DNA from: a virus
Taxonomy: Duplodnaviria > Heunggongvirae > Uroviricota > Caudoviricetes
Length of the DNA: 9,576 nt
IMG/VR virus record: IMGVR_UViG_2695420632_000010
Direction: 5' to 3' (one strand)
Shown in pieces: positions 1-9,576 of the stretch. The translations under genes were made by a program, and so were the position numbers. Below the pieces are notes generated by a model that saw only the letters and a list, made by a program, of their open reading frames with translations, was not told the origin of the DNA and searched no databases. How positions within the stretch are numbered: the first letter of the stretch is position 1; each line of letters opens with the position of its first letter.

Positions 1-439
1 GAATGGGAAGGCGATTACGCTTTTTCCTTCCCTTGTCGTCATTGCCCTCCTTATATCTGGCCTGGGGAAGACGTTGCATAACATGCCAGCGCCCATTATT
101 TAATCGCTGGATAAATGCCCGCTGATAACGATGCTGACCGGCTTTGAGTATGCTGTCCGGACGACGCCCCAGCATTCTGATCCCCAGCTTAATCACAGGG
201 AGATCACCGCGGTTAACGATAATTTTTGCATTCGGATTTCTGACCGTCGCCCGTTTCAGTCTGGACCGTTCCTTTACCAGTTTCCGTCTCACCCTGGTTT
301 CCCGGGCAACCTGTGATGAAGACTGATTAATCGCCGTTGTGGCCACGCGGTTAATCGTCATTGCTGAAGCCGCCGGAATGGCGTTTTTACGAACCCGGCT
401 CAGATTATCAATCGCCTGATCAAGCCCTTTTATCGCCAT
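1..439 (-). CDS. Z: Minor tail protein Z, N-terminal 146 codons; gene continues beyond window position 1
   Basis: ATG at 439-437 (minus). My translation begins MAIKGLDQAIDNLSRVRKNAIPAASAMTINRVATTAINQSSSQVARETRVRRKLVKERSRLKRATV and stays open to the window edge. It matches lambda gpZ as I recall it and sits directly after FII as in lambda. Absent from the ORF track because it is truncated by the window edge. Confidence 0.8.
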   Translation of the reverse strand, partial: MAIKGLDQAIDNLSRVRKNAIPAASAMTINRVATTAINQSSSQVARETRVRRKLVKERSRLKRATVRNPNAKIIVNRGDLPVIKLGIRMLGRRPDSILKAGQHRYQRAFIQRLNNGRWHVMQRLPQARYKEGNDDKGRKKRNRLPI

Positions 440-454
440 AATTTCACCCTGCGT

Positions 455-808
455 TTATCGTCGCCGGTTAACAGCGGGTGGTTGCCCACGGTTGAGCCAG
501 AGATAACAGCTTCCCCCGTCATCCGGAGAAACACGATCCACCCAGAACATCTCGCCGTTAATGGTCAGCGTGTCACCACGCCGCACGGCACGCACCGTAT
601 CCGTCCGCACAAATAATGACGGGCTGCTTCCTTCAATACGGACCCCGCCACCGGCAAAACCCAGCGACTCCGGATCGTCAAAAACCCCCTGAACTTCGCT
701 GCCACACTGTGCCCCCGAGGTGAACTGCGCACAGAGCCCCATCACTTCAACAATCGTTCTGTCCACCCCGGCAAGGGCAGCATCAAAGGAATTCTCAAAA
801 TCACGCAT
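455..808 (-). CDS. FII: Head-tail joining (tail attachment) protein FII
   Basis: 117 aa, same length as lambda gpFII. N-terminus MRDFENSFDAAL and C-terminus FWVDRVSPDDGGSCYLWLNRGQPPAVNRRR closely match lambda FII from memory. Its start overlaps the FI stop by 8 nt. Confidence 0.9.
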   Translation of the reverse strand: MRDFENSFDAALAGVDRTIVEVMGLCAQFTSGAQCGSEVQGVFDDPESLGFAGGGVRIEGSSPSLFVRTDTVRAVRRGDTLTINGEMFWVDRVSPDDGGSCYLWLNRGQPPAVNRRR

Positions 809-1169
809 AAACGGCCACTCCGCTCCTGACCATGTCTTTTGCCACTGAGGGGGGCATCAGAATTACTCTGCCAGCATCAACATGCTCAACAGGCCCACCT
901 GTTTCATCGTCAACACCGCACAGGTAAAAACACTTCAGAAGCCTGATACGTTCCAGAATACCAACGTCATCCTCACCGGTGTGCCTGCATGCCTGCTCAT
1001 GAACGGTATCATCAACATCTGCGATTTCATTTTCCGAGGCGCAAACCTCCTCTTCCCACTCTGCCACACGCTGTGCGATATCCGCAGCACTCCCCGACAT
1101 ATCCGCCTCGCGCCCCAGCAGACCAGCCAGTTCACGAAGACGTTTCTGATTTTCTTCTTTTGTTGCCAT
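801..1169 (-). CDS. FI: DNA-packaging protein FI homolog (123 aa from internal ATG)
   Basis: Acidic ~120-aa protein between E and FII, as in lambda. Preferred start is the ATG at 1169-1167, preceded by GGGAG at about 6 nt. The tracked ORF start at 1217 would run through the E terminator hairpin, so that extension is probably not translated. Identity rests on synteny and composition more than on remembered sequence. Confidence 0.65.
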   Translation of the reverse strand: MATKEENQKRLRELAGLLGREADMSGSAADIAQRVAEWEEEVCASENEIADVDDTVHEQACRHTGEDDVGILERIRLLKCFYLCGVDDETGGPVEHVDAGRVILMPPSVAKDMVRSGVAVYA

Positions 1170-1182
1170 ATCCAGCTCCCTG

Positions 1183-1212
1183 TGAAAAAAACACGGGGGC
1201 ATTTCGCCCCCG
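1183..1212 (-). terminator. Rho-independent terminator between E and FI
   Basis: On the minus strand: 7-bp GC stem CGGGGGC / GCCCCCG (1212-1206 / 1200-1194), 5-nt loop, then GUGUUUUUUU (A-run at plus 1185-1191). It lies in the 51-nt gap immediately after the E stop. Confidence 0.7.
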
Positions 1213-1220
1213 CTCACGGA

Positions 1221-2249
1221 TTATTTCACCTGTACCACCACAAACTCATCCGGATCCGGCAGCACCATCAGCGGCGCGGACTGCGTCATGGTGAATTCAC
1301 AGGACGGATCGCCCACGGTCAGCCAGTGTTTCGGGTAACGGGAAGAAGCCACCACTCCTTCAGACAACGCCTGTGCATCCTTAATGGCTCCATAGCAACG
1401 AATCCCCTCTGCTGCCGTATTCCCCAGCACCAGCGTGCCCTCCGGCAGATAACGTTTTTCGGTACCGTCCTCTGCCACATAAGACGTTTTCGCTACCACA
1501 ATGGCCAGATCGCCGTAATACCCCTTGAAGGATACCACTGCGCCCAGATCTTTCACTGCCGTTTCGAGTTGTGAATTTGAGCCGCGACGGGTATCCATTT
1601 TTTCGCGGAAAAGCTTAAAGCCATTCAGCAGACGCCAGACGGTACCGTCCATAATGGCAATATTCACAAGACCACTGGCCTGATCACAGAAAAGGTCGAT
1701 ATCATATGTCGGGTCGAACGTGTCACGATCCTGTTTTGACCACTCCTTACCGCTACCTTGTATGATGTTATTCTTCGTCGATCGGCCAAAATCGACTTCA
1801 ATTTTCTCGAACTGGTCTCCTTCCATCGTATATTTGCCATACAGCACGGCATTCACCGCCTGCATTTCTTCCACCTGCACAATAGCGTGCTCTTCCTGTT
1901 TGAGGTTATCAGTGATGATACGCAGACGACGGTAGGCCGGGTCGTTCAGCTGAGCCGGATCTTCACCGGGAAGGCGCTCAACCGCCTGCTGGTAATTAAA
2001 TTCGTGTTTCGGCTTGACGTAGCCCGGACGCAACACGCGGGTTTCACCACCACGATGGCGCAGCACTTTTCCTTCAACGATCGGGGAGACATAGGCCGCC
2101 ACCGGCGTTTTTCCGGTAATTTTGTCCAGCATCACTTCTTCGGTATGGAAATTCACCGTCCGGCGGAAAAACAGCTCCAGAAACAGCGCACGGAATTTCA
2201 CTTTTTGTTCGGTATAACCGAGTAACTGGCGGGTCGTAAACAATCCCAT
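1221..2249 (-). CDS. E: Major capsid protein E
   Basis: 342 aa against 341 for lambda gpE. Conserved blocks recalled from lambda E include YVSPIV, PGYVKPKHE, AQVEEMQAV, YGKYTM, TRRGSNS-LETAVKDLG and the C-terminal FTM-QSAPLM-L-DPDEFV. RBS AAAGGA sits upstream of the ATG at 2249. Confidence 0.93.
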   Translation of the reverse strand: MGLFTTRQLLGYTEQKVKFRALFLELFFRRTVNFHTEEVMLDKITGKTPVAAYVSPIVEGKVLRHRGGETRVLRPGYVKPKHEFNYQQAVERLPGEDPAQLNDPAYRRLRIITDNLKQEEHAIVQVEEMQAVNAVLYGKYTMEGDQFEKIEVDFGRSTKNNIIQGSGKEWSKQDRDTFDPTYDIDLFCDQASGLVNIAIMDGTVWRLLNGFKLFREKMDTRRGSNSQLETAVKDLGAVVSFKGYYGDLAIVVAKTSYVAEDGTEKRYLPEGTLVLGNTAAEGIRCYGAIKDAQALSEGVVASSRYPKHWLTVGDPSCEFTMTQSAPLMVLPDPDEFVVVQVK

Positions 2250-2513
2250 AAATCAGTTCCTTTCATTCAGAAATCAGTCAAACCACGATGGCGCAGCACT
2301 TTTCCTTCAACGATCGGGGAGACATAGGCCGCCACCGGCGTTTTTCCGGTAATTTTGTCCAGCATCACCTCTTCGGTGTGGAAATTCACCGTACGGCGGA
2401 AAAACAGCTCCAGAAATAGCGCACGGAATTTAACTTTTTGTTCGGTATAACCGAGTAACTGGCGGGTCGTAAACAATCCCATAAATCAGTTCCTTTCATT
2501 CAGAAATCAGTCA
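2049..2513. repeat. Tandem direct duplication, two ~232-bp units (2049-2280 and 2282-2513)
   Basis: Direct alignment of the two units shows 5 mismatches (unit-1 positions 2136, 2145, 2160, 2184, 2199). Each unit carries the 31-bp D-E intergenic leader plus E codons 1-68. Confidence 0.9.
2267..2482 (-). pseudogene. Truncated duplicate of the 5' end of major capsid gene E (E-prime): 68 E codons plus LTDF-stop
   Basis: The 71-aa ORF is identical to E residues 1-68 and then reads into the duplicated leader. It has the same RBS as E, and its stop lies 17 nt upstream of the authentic E start. Confidence 0.8.
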
Positions 2514-2532
2514 GGCCACCATGGTGGCCTGA
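2511..2532. repeat. 22-bp perfect palindrome TCAGGCCACCATGGTGGCCTGA in the D-E intergenic region
   Basis: The sequence is its own reverse complement, verified by hand. It sits between the D stop (2540) and the duplicated E leader, and the upstream edge of duplication unit 2 abuts it. Confidence 0.85.
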
Positions 2533-2539
2533 TAACGTG

Positions 2540-2887
2540 TTATGGCAGAGCCGCGTGACTCAGGGCTGTGCCGGCAAAGGCATTTGCCTTTTTGTGTTCA
2601 TCCACACTGTCAGGCCAGCGGATTGCCTCCGTCGCAAAGGTCCCCGACTTGTAATAGGTCAGCACCGTCTCTGTGCCTTCAAGCGGCAGTACCAGTATGC
2701 CAACCGCACTACCGGCTTTCTGTCCATCCCAGACCACCAGTTTCCCGGTGGCTTCATCCAGCATCAGGGGCGTCAGAGCCGGTGTTGCAGAAGAAATCCC
2801 GCTGCTGCCTGTGGCGGTATGAGCCGGATCATTACCAGCAAAAATACGTACTTCCGCACGCTGTTCAGTGATGGTTTTCGTCACCAT
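2540..2887 (-). CDS. D: Head decoration protein D
   Basis: 115 aa. Contains DPAHTAT, TPLMLD, KLV-WDG, AVGIL, YKSGTF and AFAGTA, which match lambda gpD as recalled. Position between C/Nu3 and E is as in lambda. Confidence 0.85.
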   Translation of the reverse strand: MVTKTITEQRAEVRIFAGNDPAHTATGSSGISSATPALTPLMLDEATGKLVVWDGQKAGSAVGILVLPLEGTETVLTYYKSGTFATEAIRWPDSVDEHKKANAFAGTALSHAALP

Positions 2888-2923
2888 TTTGTTAAAACCT
2901 CATATTGATGGTCAGCACTGACT

Positions 2924-3349
2924 TCATGGCATGGCCATGAGCATTTTCACGTCCGCATCACCGTCTGCTGACGTCTGTGACACGCCACCCCGCACCGCTG
3001 CCGGTGAATGATTCGCCATGAAATGTTCAAACAGGGCGGTTGTGGATGCAGAGACCGGTTCGGCCTTACCTGATCCCGCAGCCAGCACAGCCCGGGCGTT
3101 CTCCACGGTCATTCCCGGGCAGGCCGCCAGTTTTTCAGCCTGCGCTTCTGCCCCTTTTGCCTCATCCAGGGCCATGATCTGATCACGAAGTGAGGGCCCG
3201 GCATCCGCCAGTGGTGCAGCCGCCAGGATCGGGCGGGCTTTTTCCACCGTCATCTCCGGCATCGCCGCCAGCGTTGCCGCCAGTTGTTCACGACCGTTCG
3301 CTTCTTCACACGCCATAATGCGATCGGCTTCACTCTGCGCGGATGCCAC
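2924..3349 (-). CDS. nu3: Nu3-like scaffolding segment (C-terminal domain of C), out of frame (-1) with the protease domain
   Basis: Translation contains RIMACEEANGREQ and PEMTVEKARPILAAAP, resembling the lambda C/Nu3 C-terminus (RIMGILNCEEAHGREEQ, PGMTVKTARRILAAAP). This frame is open upstream to 3439. The tracked start at 3349 is a GTG; the first in-frame ATG is at the RIM motif. The true start is uncertain. Confidence 0.6.
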   Translation of the reverse strand: MASAQSEADRIMACEEANGREQLAATLAAMPEMTVEKARPILAAAPLADAGPSLRDQIMALDEAKGAEAQAEKLAACPGMTVENARAVLAAGSGKAEPVSASTTALFEHFMANHSPAAVRGGVSQTSADGDADVKMLMAMP

Positions 3350-4326
3350 CGGCTGCTGCGGTGCCGCCGCGGCCAGAATCGCCCGGGCCTGTTCAAAGCT
3401 TCCGTTGCAGTTAATTGCGGCATAGTGCCTCCTCTGACATTACTGTTCAGCGCCGTGGCCATCACACTGATGGCATCCGACGCATTGATTAATTCATCCG
3501 CCAGCCCGGCCTCAATGCCGGACTGACCTTCAAAAACGGCGGCCTCTGTTCCCGTGACCGCATCCACAGACAACCCGGTATACATCGCCACTTTTTCGGC
3601 AAACATCCGGTGCGCCGCATCAATCCGCTGCTGCATATCCTGGCGAACCTCTGCCGGCAACGCTTCAAACTGATTGCCATCCACCTTGTGCGCCCCGGCA
3701 TAAATCAGCGTGATATCCACACCGGCCTGCGCCAGATGACCGGCATAGCTGACATGGCTCATCATCACGCCAATGGAGCCGATACGGGATGTCTGGGTAA
3801 CCAGCCGTCGGGAGCAGGCCGACGCCAGCAGCATGGCTGCAGAACAGGCAGTGTCATTGCACAGTGCCCAGACCGGCTTCTGCTGACGGAGGCGGTAAAT
3901 CATGTCAGCGCAGTCAAACGCGCCGGCGGCCTGCCCTCCCGGACTGTCAATGTCCAGCAGTACGCCCCGCACCTGGCTATCCGCCATTGCCAGCTGAAGA
4001 CAGGCGACAATACCGTCATAGCCTGTCATTCCGGAAAATGGCCGCATACCACCCAGCCGGTGCACCAGCGTGCCGGTCACCGGCAGTACAGCAATACCGT
4101 TCACCACCCGGTAAACACGGGCCGGTCGTTTACCTCCGGCCATGTACTCGTCCGTTTCAGCCAGCATCCCGGGAGCATCAAGCTGTACCTGCTGTTGCGG
4201 TACCGAAAGACTTGCTGCCCCCATCTCGCGCCCCAGCGCGCAAAAGAAAACCCGCGCATAGGCGGGCTCCAGAAGCAGCGGTTCATTGAATACTGCTGCA
4301 ATAATGTGTGAAAGATTACGTCTCAC
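3250..4326 (-). CDS. C: Prohead protease C (S49 / ClpP-like family), protease domain; C-terminal ~50 codons are out-of-frame junk
   Basis: GTG start at 4326. N-terminus NLSHIIAAVFNEPLLLEPAYARVFFCAL matches lambda gpC (NLPHIASMAFNEPLMLEPAYARVFFCAL). NGIAVLPV-GTL, YSGMTGY, PVWAL and RRLVTQT-R-GSIGVMM are also conserved. After ...GGTMPQLTATEA the frame turns into an Arg/Trp-rich tail, which indicates a frame break. Start overlaps the B stop by 11 nt. Confidence 0.85.
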   Translation of the reverse strand: MRRNLSHIIAAVFNEPLLLEPAYARVFFCALGREMGAASLSVPQQQVQLDAPGMLAETDEYMAGGKRPARVYRVVNGIAVLPVTGTLVHRLGGMRPFSGMTGYDGIVACLQLAMADSQVRGVLLDIDSPGGQAAGAFDCADMIYRLRQQKPVWALCNDTACSAAMLLASACSRRLVTQTSRIGSIGVMMSHVSYAGHLAQAGVDITLIYAGAHKVDGNQFEALPAEVRQDMQQRIDAAHRMFAEKVAMYTGLSVDAVTGTEAAVFEGQSGIEAGLADELINASDAISVMATALNSNVRGGTMPQLTATEALNRPGRFWPRRHRSSRWHPRRVKPIALWRVKKRTVVNNWRQRWRRCRR

Positions 4327-5908
4327 GTGGTGTTGTCTCCTCTTCCGGCCTGCGACTCTCCGCTATCTGCTGCTGATACGCCTGCGCTATCCACACCGGA
4401 CGTGAGAGTCCGGCTTTTTGCCGCTCAGCAGATTCCCTGACCTGCTGGCGGAAAATGTCCTGATAATCCTCGCCCATCAGCGCCAGCTCTTTCTCATACG
4501 TGCTCAGTCCGGCCTCAATGCGCATCACTGATTCCTGGACTTCCTTGAGCCCGTCAATGGCCATTCTTCCGGCACCAATCCACTCTGCCCGTGACCAGGC
4601 TGATCGCGCCTGATAAAAATCAAAACGTGCCCGTGGCGGACGAATAATCCCCCGAAGAAGTGCCTCTTCCAGCCAGCAGGAAAACATCTGCGTGGCCAGC
4701 CGGGCCGCAATAAATTTTCGCCGCCCCATAAAATAGCGCCACGACTCATTGGCGGAGGCGCGGGCACTTGAGTAACTGACCTTCGAGTAATCACGGGACA
4801 ACTGTTCGTAGGAAACGCCAAGACCGGCGGCGATATACCGCAGCAGCGCCTGTTCAAGCGCAGAAAATCCATTGTCTGAATCCTGCGCGGTCTGAAGTTT
4901 CAGATCATCACCGGGGAAAAGGTGCGGAATTTTGACACCGCCCAGCGTCACGCTATTCGTGTCATACCAGGTGGAGAACTTATCCAGAATATTAATAAGC
5001 GGATTATCCTTCTGCCCCTGCGGCGCACCGGCGATATATTCAAAGGCCTTTTCGGTATCAAGGTCACTTTCAATCGTCGCTGCATACATCGCCTTCACTA
5101 TGGCCGACTGAAGCTGTGTTGCCTGCAGGGAATCCAGCATCTTCAGCCGTTCCATAACGCTGTAAAACTGATTGGCTCCACGGGTCTGCCCGTCCTCCAC
5201 CGGCTCGAAAATATGCAGCATGGCCGGACGCCCGGTGGGTAGTTCACGCGGGATCCGTTCCCATCGTCCATTCCCGGAGCGAGGAAAATCATCCTCACAG
5301 ATATGGTACGCAACGGCACGGCCATATCGATCGACCTCCACACCGGCCCGCAGAAAACGGTTCCCGATACCGTGTCCTGGCGTGTCCACCCGTTTCGGAC
5401 TCACGGCTTTAAAACGCGTACGAAACAGTTGCGTACTCTCCGTATCCCAGACCGGCTGCACAAAGATTTCGCCGTTAAACGCATGAACGCCCACACCTTC
5501 ACGGATAAATTCCGTAAACGTGCGTTTCCCTTCCACGTCGATCTCACCAAACATCCCTTCTGCGTATTCTGACCAGGCCGCCTCCACCTCATCGACAAAA
5601 CTTTTTGCCGCGGTCTCCCGCATCCCCAGCCAGCGCCAGTTCGGACGGTAGCTAATCAGAAACATATGCCCGACAATGTGATCCTTATGCAGGGCCACCG
5701 CATTGGCCGCTATTCCGTTATTGCGCACCAGATCATCTGCACGGGCATTCCCCAGACGCAACGCGGGCAGCAGGGCCGCATCGGCACTCTGCGAGGGTGG
5801 CAACCACTCTGCCATTTGCCCGCCAAATCCTGCACCGCCACCGTTGTAGCTGAGGCTCTCCCGAAGCGGAACGCCGTTCACATCAATCAGGACAGGCGTT
5901 CGTTTCAT
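4316..5908 (-). CDS. B: Portal protein B
   Basis: 530 aa against 533 for lambda gpB. The first ~38 residues (MKRTPVLIDVNGVPLRESLSYNGGGAGFGGQMAEWLPP) are essentially identical to lambda B as I recall it. Its ATG overlaps the W stop as ATGA. Confidence 0.95.
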   Translation of the reverse strand: MKRTPVLIDVNGVPLRESLSYNGGGAGFGGQMAEWLPPSQSADAALLPALRLGNARADDLVRNNGIAANAVALHKDHIVGHMFLISYRPNWRWLGMRETAAKSFVDEVEAAWSEYAEGMFGEIDVEGKRTFTEFIREGVGVHAFNGEIFVQPVWDTESTQLFRTRFKAVSPKRVDTPGHGIGNRFLRAGVEVDRYGRAVAYHICEDDFPRSGNGRWERIPRELPTGRPAMLHIFEPVEDGQTRGANQFYSVMERLKMLDSLQATQLQSAIVKAMYAATIESDLDTEKAFEYIAGAPQGQKDNPLINILDKFSTWYDTNSVTLGGVKIPHLFPGDDLKLQTAQDSDNGFSALEQALLRYIAAGLGVSYEQLSRDYSKVSYSSARASANESWRYFMGRRKFIAARLATQMFSCWLEEALLRGIIRPPRARFDFYQARSAWSRAEWIGAGRMAIDGLKEVQESVMRIEAGLSTYEKELALMGEDYQDIFRQQVRESAERQKAGLSRPVWIAQAYQQQIAESRRPEEETTPRET

Positions 5909-6111
5909 AACCTCACTCCCAGCGGACGACGGCGACGGCGGGTTGTCCCCAGTACCGACTCCGCATCATTGATCGCCCGGTTAAGCTCATCCAGAGAAGC
6001 TGCCGTATATTCAATTCTGCGACCATCTTTCTGGACAGACACCACCCGTTTACCGGTTAATAAATCAAGGCGCGCCTGACGCAGCACCTGCAGTTCAGCG
6101 ACTGTAACCAT
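5905..6111 (-). CDS. W: Head-tail joining protein W
   Basis: 68 aa, same as lambda gpW. The motif TGKRV--VQKDGRR-E-TA-S---L and the RRRR near the C-terminus match lambda W. GGAGGA lies 4 nt upstream of the ATG. Confidence 0.85.
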   Translation of the reverse strand: MVTVAELQVLRQARLDLLTGKRVVSVQKDGRRIEYTAASLDELNRAINDAESVLGTTRRRRRPLGVRL

Positions 6112-8023
6112 TCACTCCTCCGGACAGCTTCGCTGCCAGTTCTTTAAGGGTTGGCCGGGTCGTCTCTTCTTCCCGGGATTTTGCCAGTACAGCCAGATCA
6201 AGCTGCCAGCGTTGCACGGACACACGTAATGCCGCGTAGGCATACACCAGGCAGTCCAGCGCTTCGTTACGCCGCTTTTTGTTATCCCACAGCAGACGCA
6301 TCTTTCCTTTTTCCCACTTCTCCACAAGCTCTTCCGCGACCAGTTGCTGCGCCTCTGTCTGCGAAAAAATCTCCGGATCATCAGGAAAACGGATGGCATA
6401 CGACGTGGCTTCATCCACAGGCGTGGGATCGGCTTTCATACGGGCATAGAGAATTTCTTTTGCGGTGTCCGTCCCCACTTCGCACAGATACACGCCCCGC
6501 TGATTGCGGGTTTTTGGCATGGTGATCACCGGCTTGCCATAAACAGATGCACCTTTTACCGGCAGCACCCGGAAAACACCGTGTTTTTTTGACCTCTGAT
6601 AGACAATTTCGCCATCGATCCCCCCGGTGTCCCAGCAGACACGGGAAATGGTCATTTCGGTTCCGTCTGCATGGCGGTATTTTTTGTTGATCGCCACATC
6701 CACACGTAACAGCGTCTCTTCCTCATCGGGACGCCCCATAATGATGATTTTATCCACCAGAAAGGCTTCCTCTCCCGGAGCCCATCCCCAGACATACATC
6801 TCAAAACGGTTTCGCTGCGAGTCAATGCCCGCCGTCAGATAAACCACCCGGGAAGGCACCGCAGCCGTGTAACGCACAACCTTATCCATCAGCACCTGGT
6901 GATCGAGTTTTTCGCCCACGGCCTCTTCCCAGGTCTCGCCCAGCGTGGTGTTCACAAAGGTTTTCAGGCCGTTGGGATCTTTCAGTGCATCCAGCCAGTC
7001 ATAGACAATCTGTACCCAGGTGGTGAACGGACTGTACGCCGTCCAGATATGGAATGTGATGGAGCGCGGCGGCGGAATTTCATTATCCGCGGCGCTGAAA
7101 AACGTCAGACCGTCGCGGGTCCACATCCCCGTGTTTTCGCAGATCCACCGCCCGTTGCTCTGGTCAAGCTCAGACTGATGGATCACGCAGCCATGATGTT
7201 CACAGAGGTAGAAAACGCTTTCGGGGCTGTCCTTCTCCCATTTAAGGCCAAAAGGCGTGGACTCATCGCCAAATTTCAGATACTGCGCCTCCCCACAGTG
7301 CGGGCAGGGCACATAAAAACGCATGAAATGCGCCGACTCGTTGGCCGCTTTTTCGATCTGGCAGGAGCCTTTTATTTTAGGCGTCGAGCCGCGAATGGAT
7401 TTTGGCCATACCGAGCCCTCAATACGCTTATCCCCCAGCAGGGTTGGCGAGCCCTCTTTTTCGACATCCGGCTCGAACGAGGAAAGTTCGTCATAGCAGA
7501 CCACGTCCACGGATTTTTCACGGTAGTTTTTTGCTGCCGCACCACCCAGGCACCAGAAGCCCACCCCCGATGAAAAGCGTTTCAGCGTGAGAGTATTGTC
7601 ACGATGTTTACGACCCAGCCACGGGGAAAGATCTTTCAGGCATGGCACGTCCCGAATCGTCGCCTCCACGTGAGACTTCATAAAATCTTCAGCGGCAGAA
7701 TCCGTGGGCTGAAAAAGCAGACTGTTTCGGGATTTATGCTCAATAAAATACCCGGCGACTCCCAGCAACATCTTTGTATAGCCAACACGGGCAGATTTAA
7801 TCAGATTAACAGTGCGGATCTGATCATTCCCCATACTGTTCATGATGGCGATCTGGAACGGCAGCGTTTTCCATTCGCCGTCACCGTATGAGGATTCTTT
7901 CGGCAGATAATAATACTGGTCAGCCCATTCAACTGCCGTCATCGGTACAACCCTGACCAGAGGCTGCAGCGCAACCGAAACGGCGGCCACCATATTATTC
8001 AGTTGTTGCTCTGATATATTCAT
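6095..8023 (-). CDS. A: Terminase large subunit A
   Basis: Start set at the ATG at 8023 (MNISEQQ..., compare lambda MNISNSQ), giving 642 aa against 641 for lambda. Extensive matches recalled from lambda gpA, for example TAVEWAD--YYLPKES, KSARVGY-KMLLGV, GDKRIEGSVWPKSIRGSTPK, HFMRF-V-CPHCGE-QYLKFGD, FHIWTAYSPFTTWVQIV and KKRRNEALDC-VYA-AALR. The tracked start at 8080 is an upstream extension into Nu1. Start overlaps the Nu1 3' end by 29 nt, as in lambda. Confidence 0.95.
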   Translation of the reverse strand: MNISEQQLNNMVAAVSVALQPLVRVVPMTAVEWADQYYYLPKESSYGDGEWKTLPFQIAIMNSMGNDQIRTVNLIKSARVGYTKMLLGVAGYFIEHKSRNSLLFQPTDSAAEDFMKSHVEATIRDVPCLKDLSPWLGRKHRDNTLTLKRFSSGVGFWCLGGAAAKNYREKSVDVVCYDELSSFEPDVEKEGSPTLLGDKRIEGSVWPKSIRGSTPKIKGSCQIEKAANESAHFMRFYVPCPHCGEAQYLKFGDESTPFGLKWEKDSPESVFYLCEHHGCVIHQSELDQSNGRWICENTGMWTRDGLTFFSAADNEIPPPRSITFHIWTAYSPFTTWVQIVYDWLDALKDPNGLKTFVNTTLGETWEEAVGEKLDHQVLMDKVVRYTAAVPSRVVYLTAGIDSQRNRFEMYVWGWAPGEEAFLVDKIIIMGRPDEEETLLRVDVAINKKYRHADGTEMTISRVCWDTGGIDGEIVYQRSKKHGVFRVLPVKGASVYGKPVITMPKTRNQRGVYLCEVGTDTAKEILYARMKADPTPVDEATSYAIRFPDDPEIFSQTEAQQLVAEELVEKWEKGKMRLLWDNKKRRNEALDCLVYAYAALRVSVQRWQLDLAVLAKSREEETTRPTLKELAAKLSGGVNGYSR

Positions 8024-8501
8024 CCAGCAAATCCGGTAATTTATCCCCTGCCCGCGCACACTGATTTGCGCCCTTTGCAATAAGGGTTTTCAGATGGTCA
8101 ATATGACGTGGCGTTAAATCCGGGAACTGTCGCTGCATGGATAACGGAATGGAATCAAGCGTACTGGACAATGCCATCGCCAGTTTGCTGAGGGCGAAAA
8201 CGCAGAAGTCTGAATCGATGAGCTTACCTTCGGTTACCTGATTTTTAAGTTTTTGAGCTACAGCCTGTTCTTCTGTCAGTTCAGCTCTGGCCCGAAGCAG
8301 CCTTTCCTCCAGTTCTCCCCCGTCATCAGGTGTTCTCTGATTGTGTTGTCGCCGCTCGCGATCTATCTCCAGTACAGTTTTAACGTCATATAAAACTTCC
8401 CTCCCCCGACGTTCAACAGGAGGAACGCCCCATTTATCAAATGCCTGAACAGAGATACCGATGGAGGAGGCCATATCACTTTTATTCAATAAAAAGGCCA
8501 T
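7995..8501 (-). CDS. nu1: Terminase small subunit Nu1
   Basis: Homology to lambda gpNu1: EVLYD, the middle helical region, and the C-terminal LS-QR-FP-L--RH-D-LK block. Preferred start is the ATG at 8501, preceded by GGAGAGGAG (MAFLLNKSD...). The ATG at 8519 is an alternative. The tracked start at 8606 would run through the cosB repeats and is unlikely. Confidence 0.85.
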   Translation of the reverse strand: MAFLLNKSDMASSIGISVQAFDKWGVPPVERRGREVLYDVKTVLEIDRERRQHNQRTPDDGGELEERLLRARAELTEEQAVAQKLKNQVTEGKLIDSDFCVFALSKLAMALSSTLDSIPLSMQRQFPDLTPRHIDHLKTLIAKGANQCARAGDKLPDLLDEYIRATTE

Positions 8502-8531
8502 CTCCTCTCCATAAGTCATCGATAAAAAGCG

Positions 8532-8680
8532 AAACAACAACCATGTGTTTTTGCAAAACCATTTGATATCATTGACATTTTTCGCATTGACGACATCAAA
8601 ACACATCGTAAGGTTGTTGTATTTATTTTATTTTCACCTTACTTATCAATTAGATATACCAAACAATTAAACAACAACCA
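8532..8680. other. cosB-like region: three copies of ACAACAACC (two direct, one inverted) between cosN and Nu1
   Basis: AAACAACAACCA at 8532-8543 and at 8669-8680, with the inverted copy GGTTGTTGT at 8612-8620. An AT-rich segment with an IHF-like TATCAATTAGATA lies between them (8643-8655). The layout parallels lambda R1/R2/I1/R3, but the sequences differ from lambda. Confidence 0.5.
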
Positions 8681-8717
8681 CCCCCTCAAAAAATCTCATA
8701 AATAGTGAAAACGCGCG

Positions 8718-8729
8718 AGGTCGCCGCCC
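8718..8729 (-). other. cosN: 12-nt cohesive-end sequence GGGCGGCGACCT (minus strand), the virion genome ends
   Basis: Minus strand 8760->8700 reads CGGGTCCTTTCCGGCGATCCGGGCCGTTACG|GGGCGGCGACCTCGCGCGTTTTCACTATTTATGA. This is near-identical to the lambda right-end/left-end junction (..GGTTACG|GGGCGGCGACCTCGCGGGTTTTCGCTATTTATGAAAA) as I recall it. Confidence 0.85.
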
Positions 8730-8981
8730 CGTAACGGCCCGGATCGCCGGAAAGGACCCGCAAAATGATAATGGTTATCATTTTCAATGTAGTCCGGTTT
8801 CTTCCACCATCGCACCGGACTGGCGACTATGAGGGGACAACGCCGCGCTCCGTTAACGCGGTAAACCCCGGTGTGTATCGTTTTTGATTATCCCCGCACA
8901 CTCGCGCAGAGGAGTCTCCCTGTCGGGCTGCGGTCTCTGTTAATGAGGGAATACAGCGACGATACGGCGCATCAGCAAAAC

Positions 8982-9449
8982 TTAGTTCAGGCACTGAGTG
9001 CGGATATAGTCCTGTGCCCCTTCCAGCTGCTTCTGCATTGTCATCAACCGTTCTCTGAGGATGAAATAATCCCGTTCAGCGGTGTCTGCCAGTCGGGGGC
9101 CGGTTGCATTATCCACGCCGGAGGTGCCGGTGGCTTCACGCACGGTACCGGAGCAGGTGGCGTTGATCCGCAGGCGCTTACGACCAGCGGCAACATCAGC
9201 ACGTAGAGTTTCATTTTCAGCTCTCGCATCGGCTAATTCCCTCGAGTATCTGGCATCAAGTTCAGCGACATCACGCTGGCGTATCTGCATATCAGTAATT
9301 GTCGCGTTCGCCAGTTTCAGCTCACTGACTTTTTTATCGCGCTGCGCTTTGTAGGTGATGGCGTTATCGCGGTAATGATTCAGCCCCAGACTAAGCACAC
9401 CACAGGCTACCAGCAGGACAATAATCACCACACACAGAACACGGTTCAT
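8982..9449 (-). CDS. Rz: Spanin, inner-membrane subunit Rz (i-spanin)
   Basis: From the ATG at 9449: [39 protein letters not shown]...[22 protein letters not shown]. Strong match to lambda Rz (..[35 protein letters not shown]..). N-terminal TM segment present. The tracked GTG start at 9533 is a likely over-extension. Confidence 0.9.
9044..9229 (-). CDS. Rz1: Spanin, outer-membrane lipoprotein subunit Rz1 (o-spanin), nested in the +1 frame of Rz
   Basis: 61 aa. Lipobox VVSAC and the proline-rich [27 protein letters not shown] match lambda Rz1 ([27 protein letters not shown]). Entirely embedded within Rz, as in lambda. Confidence 0.8.
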
Positions 9450-9450
9450 A

Positions 9451-9576
9451 TCACCACCAACGGATTGCCCAGACCAGAACAGCAATGGCCACAATACGAA
9501 TAGCAAATGCCATTGCCCGAATAAGTTCAGCACTCATCTTTTTAAAGTTCACGATTTCAGCGCAATGACCAGTTTT
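9451..9576 (-). CDS. 3' end of an unidentified gene immediately upstream of Rz; strongly hydrophobic C-terminus
   Basis: The only open minus-strand frame at the window edge reads ...[41 protein letters not shown]-stop. The TGA stop (9453-9451) lies 1 nt before the Rz ATG. Position suggests a lysis-cassette gene, but the C-terminus does not resemble lambda R as I recall it. Confidence 0.35.

What the first reader, a model, noticed from the sequence alone, without database searches (positions are those of the whole stretch)
2049..2513. Tandem duplication of the 5' end of the major capsid gene; all five differences between copies are synonymous
The 232-bp unit (31-bp leader with RBS plus E codons 1-68) occurs twice in tandem, at 2049-2280 and 2282-2513. 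It yields a stand-alone 71-aa E N-terminal fragment (2267-2482) whose stop lies 17 nt upstream of the real E start. The five mismatches all fall on third codon positions (E codons 17, 22, 30, 35, 38) and none changes the protein. A fresh slippage duplication should be identical, and random drift should hit non-synonymous sites. The pattern suggests the extra copy came from a diverged but selected homologous E gene in another lambdoid phage, or that both copies are under purifying selection. If expressed, the fragment could affect capsid assembly or modulate E translation by termination-reinitiation. A mis-assembly across multiple similar prophages is an equally live explanation.
Basis: seen in the sequence. 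Interest (0 to 1): 0.55.

Follow-up and report, generated by a model that had tools for sequence, protein, structure and literature searches.

The report
Scaffold-gap artefact, not capsid gene duplication
The apparent tandem duplication of the start of the phage capsid gene is two overlapping contig ends that an assembly pipeline glued together across an unresolved one-letter gap (an N in the public record), so it is an assembly artefact in an otherwise ordinary lambda-like prophage.

Summary
The repeat is in the window as described: copy A 2049-2280, one extra base at 2281, copy B 2282-2513. The five mismatches are all synonymous, at E codons 17, 22, 30, 35 and 38. The duplicated part is E codons 1-67, not 1-68.

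The window is the whole 9,576-bp contig CYEG01000068.1 of draft assembly GCA_001285925.2. That record matches the window except at window 2281 and 3397, where it has N. Position 2281 is the duplication junction. Position 3397 is the junction of a second anomaly, where about 104 nt of the C/Nu3 protease-scaffold gene are missing. So the "contig" is three pieces joined over single-N gaps, and no determined sequence crosses either junction.

The junction occurs in 0 of 5,426 complete E. coli genomes (1,886 carry this region, and every row listed spans one copy). It is also absent from the GTDB representatives, IMG/VR, the JGI metagenomes and 93 fetched loci.

Copy A matches the allele of the nearest intact relatives. 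Copy B matches another common natural E allele. All five sites are standing synonymous polymorphisms in the prophage pool, which explains the "all synonymous" pattern.

Verdict: false duplication at a scaffold gap. It is not a real feature and interest is very low.

The parts
2049..2280 (-). Copy A: right-hand end of assembly piece 1 (window 1-2280). It holds the 31-nt E leader with RBS plus E codons 1-67, and continues into full-length E.
   Evidence: define the repeat; no mismatches to the nearest intact relatives L094-L102 apart from the N position; haplotype GGGTA, the same as L004 and L005.
2281..2281 (.). Join marker. It is N in the public record CYEG01000068.1 and is shown as A(+)/T(-) in the window. 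This is the 'junction' of the apparent tandem duplication.
   Evidence: the record and the window differ only here and at 3397; this base is shared by none of the 13 loci compared, and all 92 upstream sequences read lack TTTGACTG (90 read CCTGACTG there).
2282..2513 (-). Copy B: left-hand end of assembly piece 2 (window 2282-3396). It covers the same 232 nt as copy A but carries a different natural E allele, so the overlap was not merged.
   Evidence: no mismatches to 16 loci carrying haplotype TATCG, and 5 mismatches to the nearest relatives. Searches give the haplotype counts.
2267..2482 (-). Spurious 71-aa ORF (E residues 1-67, then X/L-T-D-F) created by the un-merged overlap. Codon 68 contains the N.
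   Evidence: ORF. (called as a 71-aa gene at L103 7095-7310). (codon NTG). (exact product not on record).
1221..2249 (-). Full-length major capsid protein gene E (342 aa, PF03864).
   Evidence: the identical protein is listed in 4,012 blocks of the collection, and all 10 places shown have it as a single copy.
2514..2529 (.). 16-nt perfect palindrome GGCCACCATGGTGGCC between the D stop codon and the E leader. It is part of the native D-E intergenic region.
   Evidence: It is present upstream of the leader in nearly all loci, with the centre reading CCATGG or CCGCGG.
2540..2887 (-). Head decoration protein gene (D/Shp-like, 115 aa, PF02924).
3397..3397 (.). Second join marker. It is N in the public record. 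It stands for about 104 nt of the C/Nu3 (S49 peptidase/scaffold) gene that are present in all relatives, and it produces a false frameshift.
   Evidence: missing stretch. (N in the record). (this junction is in 0 of 5,426 E. coli genomes).
2924..4326 (-). C/Nu3 protease-scaffold gene. It is 501 aa in relatives. Here it is split into ORFs of 358 aa and 109/141 aa by the unfilled gap at 3397.

Best explanation
The window is a short scaffold from a draft short-read assembly, contig CYEG01000068.1 of GCA_001285925.2. It is built from three separately assembled pieces: 1-2280, 2282-3396 and 3398-9576. Each join is marked by a single N.

At the first join, the two piece ends cover the same 232 nt of the genome (the E leader plus codons 1-67). 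They carry two different natural alleles at five synonymous sites. The overlap was therefore not recognised or merged, and the pieces were laid end to end. This produces a false tandem duplication and a spurious 71-aa ORF.

At the second join, about 104 nt were never filled. This produces a false deletion and frameshift in the C/Nu3 gene.

Shown directly: the two Ns sit exactly at the two structural discontinuities. Neither junction is found anywhere else. Both copies are identical to natural single-copy alleles.

Inferred: the second allele comes from another E-bearing lambdoid prophage in the same isolate (or from a mixed sample) whose reads were co-assembled. Also inferred: a scaffolder and gap-filler of the SSPACE/GapFiller type left the single Ns. 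The underlying biology is an ordinary phage-21/lambda-like head gene cluster with one E gene.
For: 1; the window's portal protein leads to L103, NCBI GCA_001285925.2 contig CYEG01000068.1. That contig is 9,576 bp and the locus covers 1-9576 reversed.
2. L103 equals the reverse complement of the window except at two positions, which are N in L103. These map to window 2281 and 3397. L103 has exactly 2 Ns and the window has none.
3; 2281 and 3397 are the breakpoints of the only two structural differences from related prophages within 1-8781 (a gain of 233 nt and a loss of 103 nt).
4; 1,886 of 5,426 complete E. coli genomes carry this D-E region, and in every row listed the match spans 518 nt, i.e. 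a single copy. A junction-spanning query is covered at 80% or more in 0 genomes.
5; the exact junction is absent from the GTDB species representatives, IMG/VR and the JGI metagenomes; none of 93 fetched loci has two copies.
6; the nearest relatives (L094-L102, same portal protein, normal layout with a 501-aa C and one E) match copy A and 2515-3396 exactly, apart from the N positions. They differ from copy B at all five SNPs.
7; both haplotypes exist as single-copy alleles (GGGTA in 3 loci, TATCG in 18). All five sites are segregating synonymous polymorphisms, as are 25 of the 28 segregating sites in codons 1-67.
8; every other position where the window departs from its nearest relatives within 1-8781 (52, 65, 1581, 3538) carries the base seen in L009/L018/L020-type prophages. 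Those loci also carry the copy-B allele.
9. Literature:
- GapFiller extends both gap edges and closes a gap only if the extensions overlap and the size fits the estimate (PMC3446322).
- Single-N insertions are treated as markers of construction anomalies in scaffolds (PMC5902842).
- A gap between duplicated copies on one scaffold, with allelic differences between them, is a primary hallmark of false duplications (PMC9516828).
Against: No reads were available, so coverage, allele ratios at the five sites and junction-spanning reads could not be inspected. The assembly pipeline used for GCA_001285925.2 was not identified, and no paper mentioning the accession was found. A second E-bearing prophage in this isolate is inferred, not observed. 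In principle a single N could be an ambiguous base call inside a real junction.
Confidence: 0.94

Rival explanations
1. A real tandem duplication with two different alleles. Illegitimate or unequal recombination between two different lambdoid phage genomes (co-resident prophages, or a prophage and an infecting phage) joined E codon 67 of one genome to the E leader of the other. The N would then be just one uncalled base.
For: The two copies are distinct natural alleles. These prophages are highly mosaic. Many genomes carry up to 5 such loci. There is weak similarity between E codons 65-68 (CATCGTGGTGG) and the palindrome upstream of the leader (CATGGTGGCC).
Against: The junction base is an N. 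The only other N in the record sits exactly on the other structural anomaly, 1.1 kb away. A crossover within the weak similarity would give CGTGGCCTGACTG, but the record reads CGTGGTNTGACTG. The junction is found in no other genome or contig. Sequence on both sides of copy B is identical to the same resident prophage type. That pattern would need a 232-nt insertion of foreign allele rather than a simple crossover.
Confidence: 0.04
2. A real duplication that started as two identical copies through replication slippage. One copy was later patched by short gene conversion from another prophage's E allele. The five SNPs lie within 64 nt.
For: The five differences cluster at 2136-2199 / 2369-2432. 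The rest of the unit is identical between the two copies, so a single conversion tract could explain all five.
Against: The evidence is the same as for the first rival: N at the junction, a second N at the second anomaly, and no recurrence elsewhere. This explanation also needs two rare events instead of one assembly error.
Confidence: 0.01
3. A functional N-terminal capsid fragment. The 71-aa product is kept by selection and modulates E translation (termination-reinitiation) or capsid assembly.
For: The fragment has an intact RBS and start codon, and its stop lies 17 nt before the E start. The differences between the copies are all synonymous.
Against: It requires the duplication to be real (see the first rival). 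The synonymous pattern is fully explained by pre-existing allelic polymorphism. No such ORF was seen in any other genome examined. The same scaffold also shows an apparently broken essential C/Nu3 gene at the other N.
Confidence: 0.01

Closest known systems
False ('heterotype'-like) duplications flanking assembly gaps in draft genomes (Ko et al. 2022, PMC9516828; Kelley & Salzberg, cited there)
   Same: Two adjacent copies lie on one scaffold and are separated by a gap character. The copies differ only at allelic variants, each of which exists as a single-copy sequence elsewhere. The result is a spurious extra gene model. The duplication is absent from higher-quality assemblies of relatives.
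   Different: This is a haploid bacterium. The two 'haplotypes' are most likely paralogous copies in two co-resident lambdoid prophages (or a mixed culture), not diploid alleles. The gap is a single N. Read depth and read-pair discordance could not be checked.
Scaffolder and gap-filler joins (SSPACE plus GapFiller type; GapFiller paper PMC3446322). Single-N insertions as scaffold construction anomalies (PMC5902842).
   Same: Single Ns sit at joins where the flanks either overlap without being merged (negative gap, 232 nt) or leave sequence missing (about 104 nt). GapFiller closes a gap only when the two extensions overlap and the inserted size matches the estimate. Allelic ambiguity blocks closure.
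   Different: The actual software used for GCA_001285925.2 was not established. That SSPACE writes a single n for unmerged negative gaps is from my own memory of its manual and was not verified here.
Phage 21 / lambda-type head morphogenesis cluster (Nu1-A-W-B-C/Nu3-D(shp)-E(gene 7)-FI-FII-Z)
   Same: The gene order and Pfam families are the same (PF07471, PF05876, PF02831, PF05136, PF01343, PF02924, PF03864, PF14000, PF05354, PF06763). The D-E region is 95% identical in DNA to phage 21 (M81255).
   Different: Nothing of substance once the two assembly joins are repaired. It is an ordinary E. coli-type lambdoid prophage module, 98.7% identical to its best match among complete genomes and 99.9% or more to several draft contigs.

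Membership tests
Genuine tandem gene-fragment duplication | The novel junction is read as continuous determined sequence. | tested here: not met
   The junction base is N in the source record. It is one of only two Ns, and both lie on structural breakpoints.
Genuine tandem gene-fragment duplication | The same junction recurs in related or clonal genomes, or in independent assemblies. | tested here: not met
   It is found in 0 of 5,426 complete E. coli genomes, in no GTDB representative, IMG/VR contig or JGI metagenome, and in 0 of 93 loci. The nearest relatives, at 99.9% identity or more, carry a single copy.
Genuine tandem gene-fragment duplication | The breakpoints are explained by microhomology or slippage. 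| tested here: inconclusive
   There is weak similarity between CATCGTGGTGG and CATGGTGGCC. However, the predicted product CGTGGCCTGACTG does not match the observed CGTGGTNTGACTG.
Genuine tandem gene-fragment duplication | Reads or PCR products span both copies. | not testable with these tools
   No read data were accessible.
False duplication at an assembly gap | A gap character lies between the two copies on the same scaffold. | tested here: met
   There is an N at L103 7296, which is window 2281, exactly between copy A and copy B.
False duplication at an assembly gap | The copies differ only at allelic variants that exist as single-copy sequences elsewhere. | tested here: met
   Copy A equals the allele of L004, L005 and L094-L102. 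Copy B equals the allele of 16-18 other loci. All five sites are segregating polymorphisms.
False duplication at an assembly gap | Other signs of piecewise construction appear in the same scaffold. | tested here: met
   A second N at window 3397 replaces about 104 nt that are present in all relatives.
False duplication at an assembly gap | Read depth is abnormal (each copy at a fraction of the expected depth) and read pairs are discordant. | not testable with these tools
   No read data were accessible.
Lambda / phage 21-type major capsid protein E (PF03864) in a lambdoid head module | A Pfam Phage_cap_E hit and the conserved gene order Nu1-A-W-portal-S49 protease-D-E-FI-FII-Z. | tested here: met
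   The precomputed Pfam hits and gene order for L103 and its relatives show this. RefSeq annotation of L001-L003 agrees.

The most novel reading that the evidence does not exclude
The isolate really carries a 233-bp tandem duplication with two different alleles of the E leader plus codons 1-67, formed by illegitimate recombination between two lambdoid prophages. The assembler merely failed to call one base at the junction. The resulting 71-aa N-terminal capsid fragment, which ends 17 nt upstream of the E start, would then be a candidate modulator of E translation or procapsid assembly.
Probability: 0.04. Interest if true: 0.35.

Novelty: not a real feature. Interest (0 to 1): 0.03.

Why it matters
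It matters only as a caution. Single-N joins in draft bacterial assemblies can pass for tandem duplications, deletions, frameshifts and small new ORFs, especially in prophage regions that are present in several near-identical copies. In this window the Ns had been turned into ordinary bases. That hid the one clue a reader of raw sequence would have needed. The "all differences synonymous" pattern looks like evidence of selection on a duplicate. In fact it is what any two natural alleles of a strongly conserved capsid gene look like. If the duplication were real it would be a modest curiosity: a private lesion in one prophage.

Tried and rejected
1. Non-templated 'A' idea. I first noticed that both junctions had an odd 'A' on the plus strand and considered a non-templated base (error-prone repair, A-tailing, erroneous contig ends). 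For 3397 a natural allele AGCTTCCG exists, which seemed to explain that base. The real explanation came later: both bases are N in the record.\n\n2. HindIII site. The deletion junction reads AAGCTT, which briefly suggested engineering. I rejected this because the first A of that site is an N.\n\n3. Microhomology-mediated template switching at the duplication junction. The predicted sequence does not match the observed one.\n\n4. Looking for a natural allele with TTTGACTG upstream of the leader, which would make the junction a homologous crossover. None of the 92 upstream sequences read has it.\n\n5. Exact look-up of the 71-aa product. It found nothing, most likely because codon 68 contains the N.\n\n6. 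Literature searches.\n- The search for the accession found nothing.\n- The search for an explicit statement that SSPACE or GapFiller leave a single N found only indirect support.\n- The Pilon paper hit was a false lead, because 'single n' matched 'single nucleotide'.\n\n7. Left-versus-right chimera test against 13 loci. It was uninformative because of heavy natural mosaicism. It became informative only once near-identical relatives were found.

Full report
**1. The observation**

The window contains a 2.0-copy tandem repeat of period 233 at 2049-2524, with 96% matches. It was also found as a direct repeat, 2049-2281 and 2282-2514, at 97% identity.

- The genes lie on the minus strand. An alignment of the two copies in gene orientation shows identical 31-nt leaders (TGACTGATTTCTGAATGAAAGGAACTGATTT), followed by ATG and E codons 1-67.
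- There are five mismatches, all at third codon positions of V17, L22, R30, H35 and E38, and all synonymous.
- The exact unit is 232 nt: 2049-2280 and 2282-2513, with one extra base at 2281.
The only correction is that 67 codons of E are duplicated, not 68.

**2. Is it seen anywhere else?**

- The D-E region occurs in 1,886 of 5,426 complete E. coli genomes. In every listed row the 751-nt query maps onto a 518-nt stretch, which is a single copy. The 20 phage records that hold most of the query, phage 21 among them, do the same.
- I designed a query in which single-copy genomes could cover at most 77% of its length. No genome covered it at 80% or more.
- The exact junction string is absent from one genome per GTDB species, from IMG/VR and from the JGI metagenomes.
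- Among 93 loci fetched through the E protein, none has two copies. None of the 92 upstream sequences read has TTTGACTG upstream of the leader: 90 read CCTGACTG, one reads ACCTGACTG, and one has an unrelated upstream sequence.

**3. Why the differences are all synonymous**

- At the five sites, copy A reads GGGTA and copy B reads TATCG. Both haplotypes exist exactly as ordinary single-copy E alleles. GGGTA is in L004, L005 and one other locus. TATCG is in 18 loci. Intermediate haplotypes also occur.
- Across 93 full-length E alleles, all five sites are segregating polymorphisms. Of the 28 segregating sites in codons 1-67, 25 are synonymous third positions. Of 351 pairs of distinct 201-nt alleles, 164 differ only synonymously.
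- The pattern is therefore what two natural alleles of this strongly conserved capsid gene look like. It says nothing about selection on a duplicate.

**4. A second anomaly**

Against related prophages the window also lacks about 103 nt at 3397/3398, inside the C/Nu3 (S49 peptidase/scaffold) gene. That gene is 501 aa in the relatives. In the window it is split into a frameshifted 358-aa ORF and a downstream ORF. This junction is also absent from all 5,426 complete E. coli genomes.

**5. The decisive result**

- Looking up the window's portal protein returned the source. The window is the complete 9,576-bp contig CYEG01000068.1 of draft assembly GCA_001285925.2, fetched as L103.
- L103 is the reverse complement of the window except at exactly two positions, where L103 has N. 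L103 position 7296 is window 2281, and L103 position 6180 is window 3397. L103 holds exactly two Ns and the window none.
- These are the junction of the "duplication" and the junction of the "deletion". The record reads …CATCGTGGTnTGACTGATTTC… and …CAACGGAAGCnTTGAACAGG….
- The contig is therefore a scaffold of three pieces (1-2280, 2282-3396, 3398-9576) joined by single-N markers. No determined sequence crosses either junction.
- Two Ns among 9,576 positions both landing exactly on the only two structural breakpoints within 1-8781 cannot be coincidence.

**6. What lies underneath**

- Nine other contigs encoding the identical portal protein (L094-L102) have the normal layout, with a 501-aa C, D and one E. 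They are nearly identical to the window; for example, L097 has 2 mismatches in 6,104 nt to the right of 3398.
- Apart from the N positions, they match copy A and 2515-3396 exactly. They differ from copy B at all five SNPs. Copy A is thus the resident allele and copy B is the foreign one.
- The few other positions within 1-8781 where the window departs from these relatives (52, 65, 1581, 3538) all carry the base found in L009/L018/L020-type prophages. Those loci also carry the copy-B allele.
- This suggests, by inference only, that the isolate holds a second closely related E-bearing prophage whose reads were co-assembled. Many E. coli genomes carry two to five such loci.

**7. Mechanism (inferred)**

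Where near-identical prophage copies differ by a few SNPs, short-read contigs break. A scaffolder orders the pieces, and a gap-filler extends both edges. GapFiller closes a gap only if the two extensions overlap and the inserted length fits the estimate, and allelic ambiguity hampers this (PMC3446322).

- At the first join, two ends covered the same 232 nt with five allelic mismatches and were not merged. This left a false tandem duplication around one N.
- At the second join, about 104 nt were left unfilled around one N.

Single-N insertions are recognised as markers of scaffold construction anomalies (PMC5902842). A gap between adjacent duplicated copies that differ by allelic variants is a primary hallmark of false duplications (PMC9516828). 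Which software built this assembly was not established.

**8. Comparison with what is known, and verdict**

Once the two joins are repaired, the locus is an ordinary phage-21/lambda-type head module: Rz, Nu1, A, W, portal, C/Nu3, D, E, FI, FII and Z, with the expected Pfam families.

- The "duplication" meets every testable criterion for a false duplication at an assembly gap.
- It fails the testable criteria for a genuine duplication: a sequenced junction and recurrence in other genomes. The breakpoint logic was inconclusive.
- A genuine duplication with two different alleles remains possible in principle, at a few percent, because no reads could be examined. Read mapping or a PCR across window 1950-2600 (about 418 bp against about 651 bp) would settle it.
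- I classify the finding as not a real feature, with very low interest.

Noticed in passing
window 3397 (within 2924-4326, minus strand): This is the second single-N join of the source record. About 104 nt of the C/Nu3 S49 protease/scaffold gene are replaced by one N, which the window shows as A. The result is an apparent 103-nt deletion and frameshift: ORFs of 358 aa and 109/141 aa instead of 501 aa. The junction even mimics a HindIII site (AAGCTT).
   Followed up: yes
window 52, 65, 1581, 2369-2432, 3538: Within 1-8781, every position where the window departs from its near-identical relatives (L094-L102) carries the base of L009/L018/L020-type prophages. This hints that reads from a second, co-resident E-bearing prophage were blended into this contig.
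   Followed up: partly
L104 1501-1745 (Aeromonas phage AP1, MT713136.1 250152-250396): The record of a 254-kb Aeromonas T4-like phage contains 245 nt that are 96.7% identical to codons 1-81 of this E. coli lambdoid capsid gene. The match starts exactly at the ATG, ends abruptly on both sides, and lies unannotated in a patch of about 50% GC near the record's end. It looks like a contaminant or chimeric stretch in that record.
   Followed up: partly
window 2514-2529: A 16-nt perfect palindrome, GGCCACCATGGTGGCC, lies between the D stop codon and the E leader. It is conserved across loci. The two commonest variants (centre CCATGG or CCGCGG) both keep the perfect palindrome, while rarer variants break one arm. 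It may be an RNA hairpin or a processing or attenuation signal between D and E. I did not investigate further.
   Followed up: no
window 8781-8993 versus L001/L002 (about 9650-10880): Between Nu1 and the Rz/Rz1 lysis genes, the best complete-genome relatives carry roughly 0.8-1.1 kb of extra sequence that the window lacks (a YlcI/YnfO family gene and small hypothetical genes). L097 matches the window straight through this region. This is a natural mosaic boundary near the expected cos region and has no N associated with it.
   Followed up: partly
window 8982-9533 and 9044-9229 (minus strand): An Rz-type spanin gene carries an embedded Rz1-like ORF in another reading frame (61 aa, lipoprotein-like N-terminus ending in a Cys). 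This is the usual nested lysis-gene arrangement of lambdoid phages.
   Followed up: no
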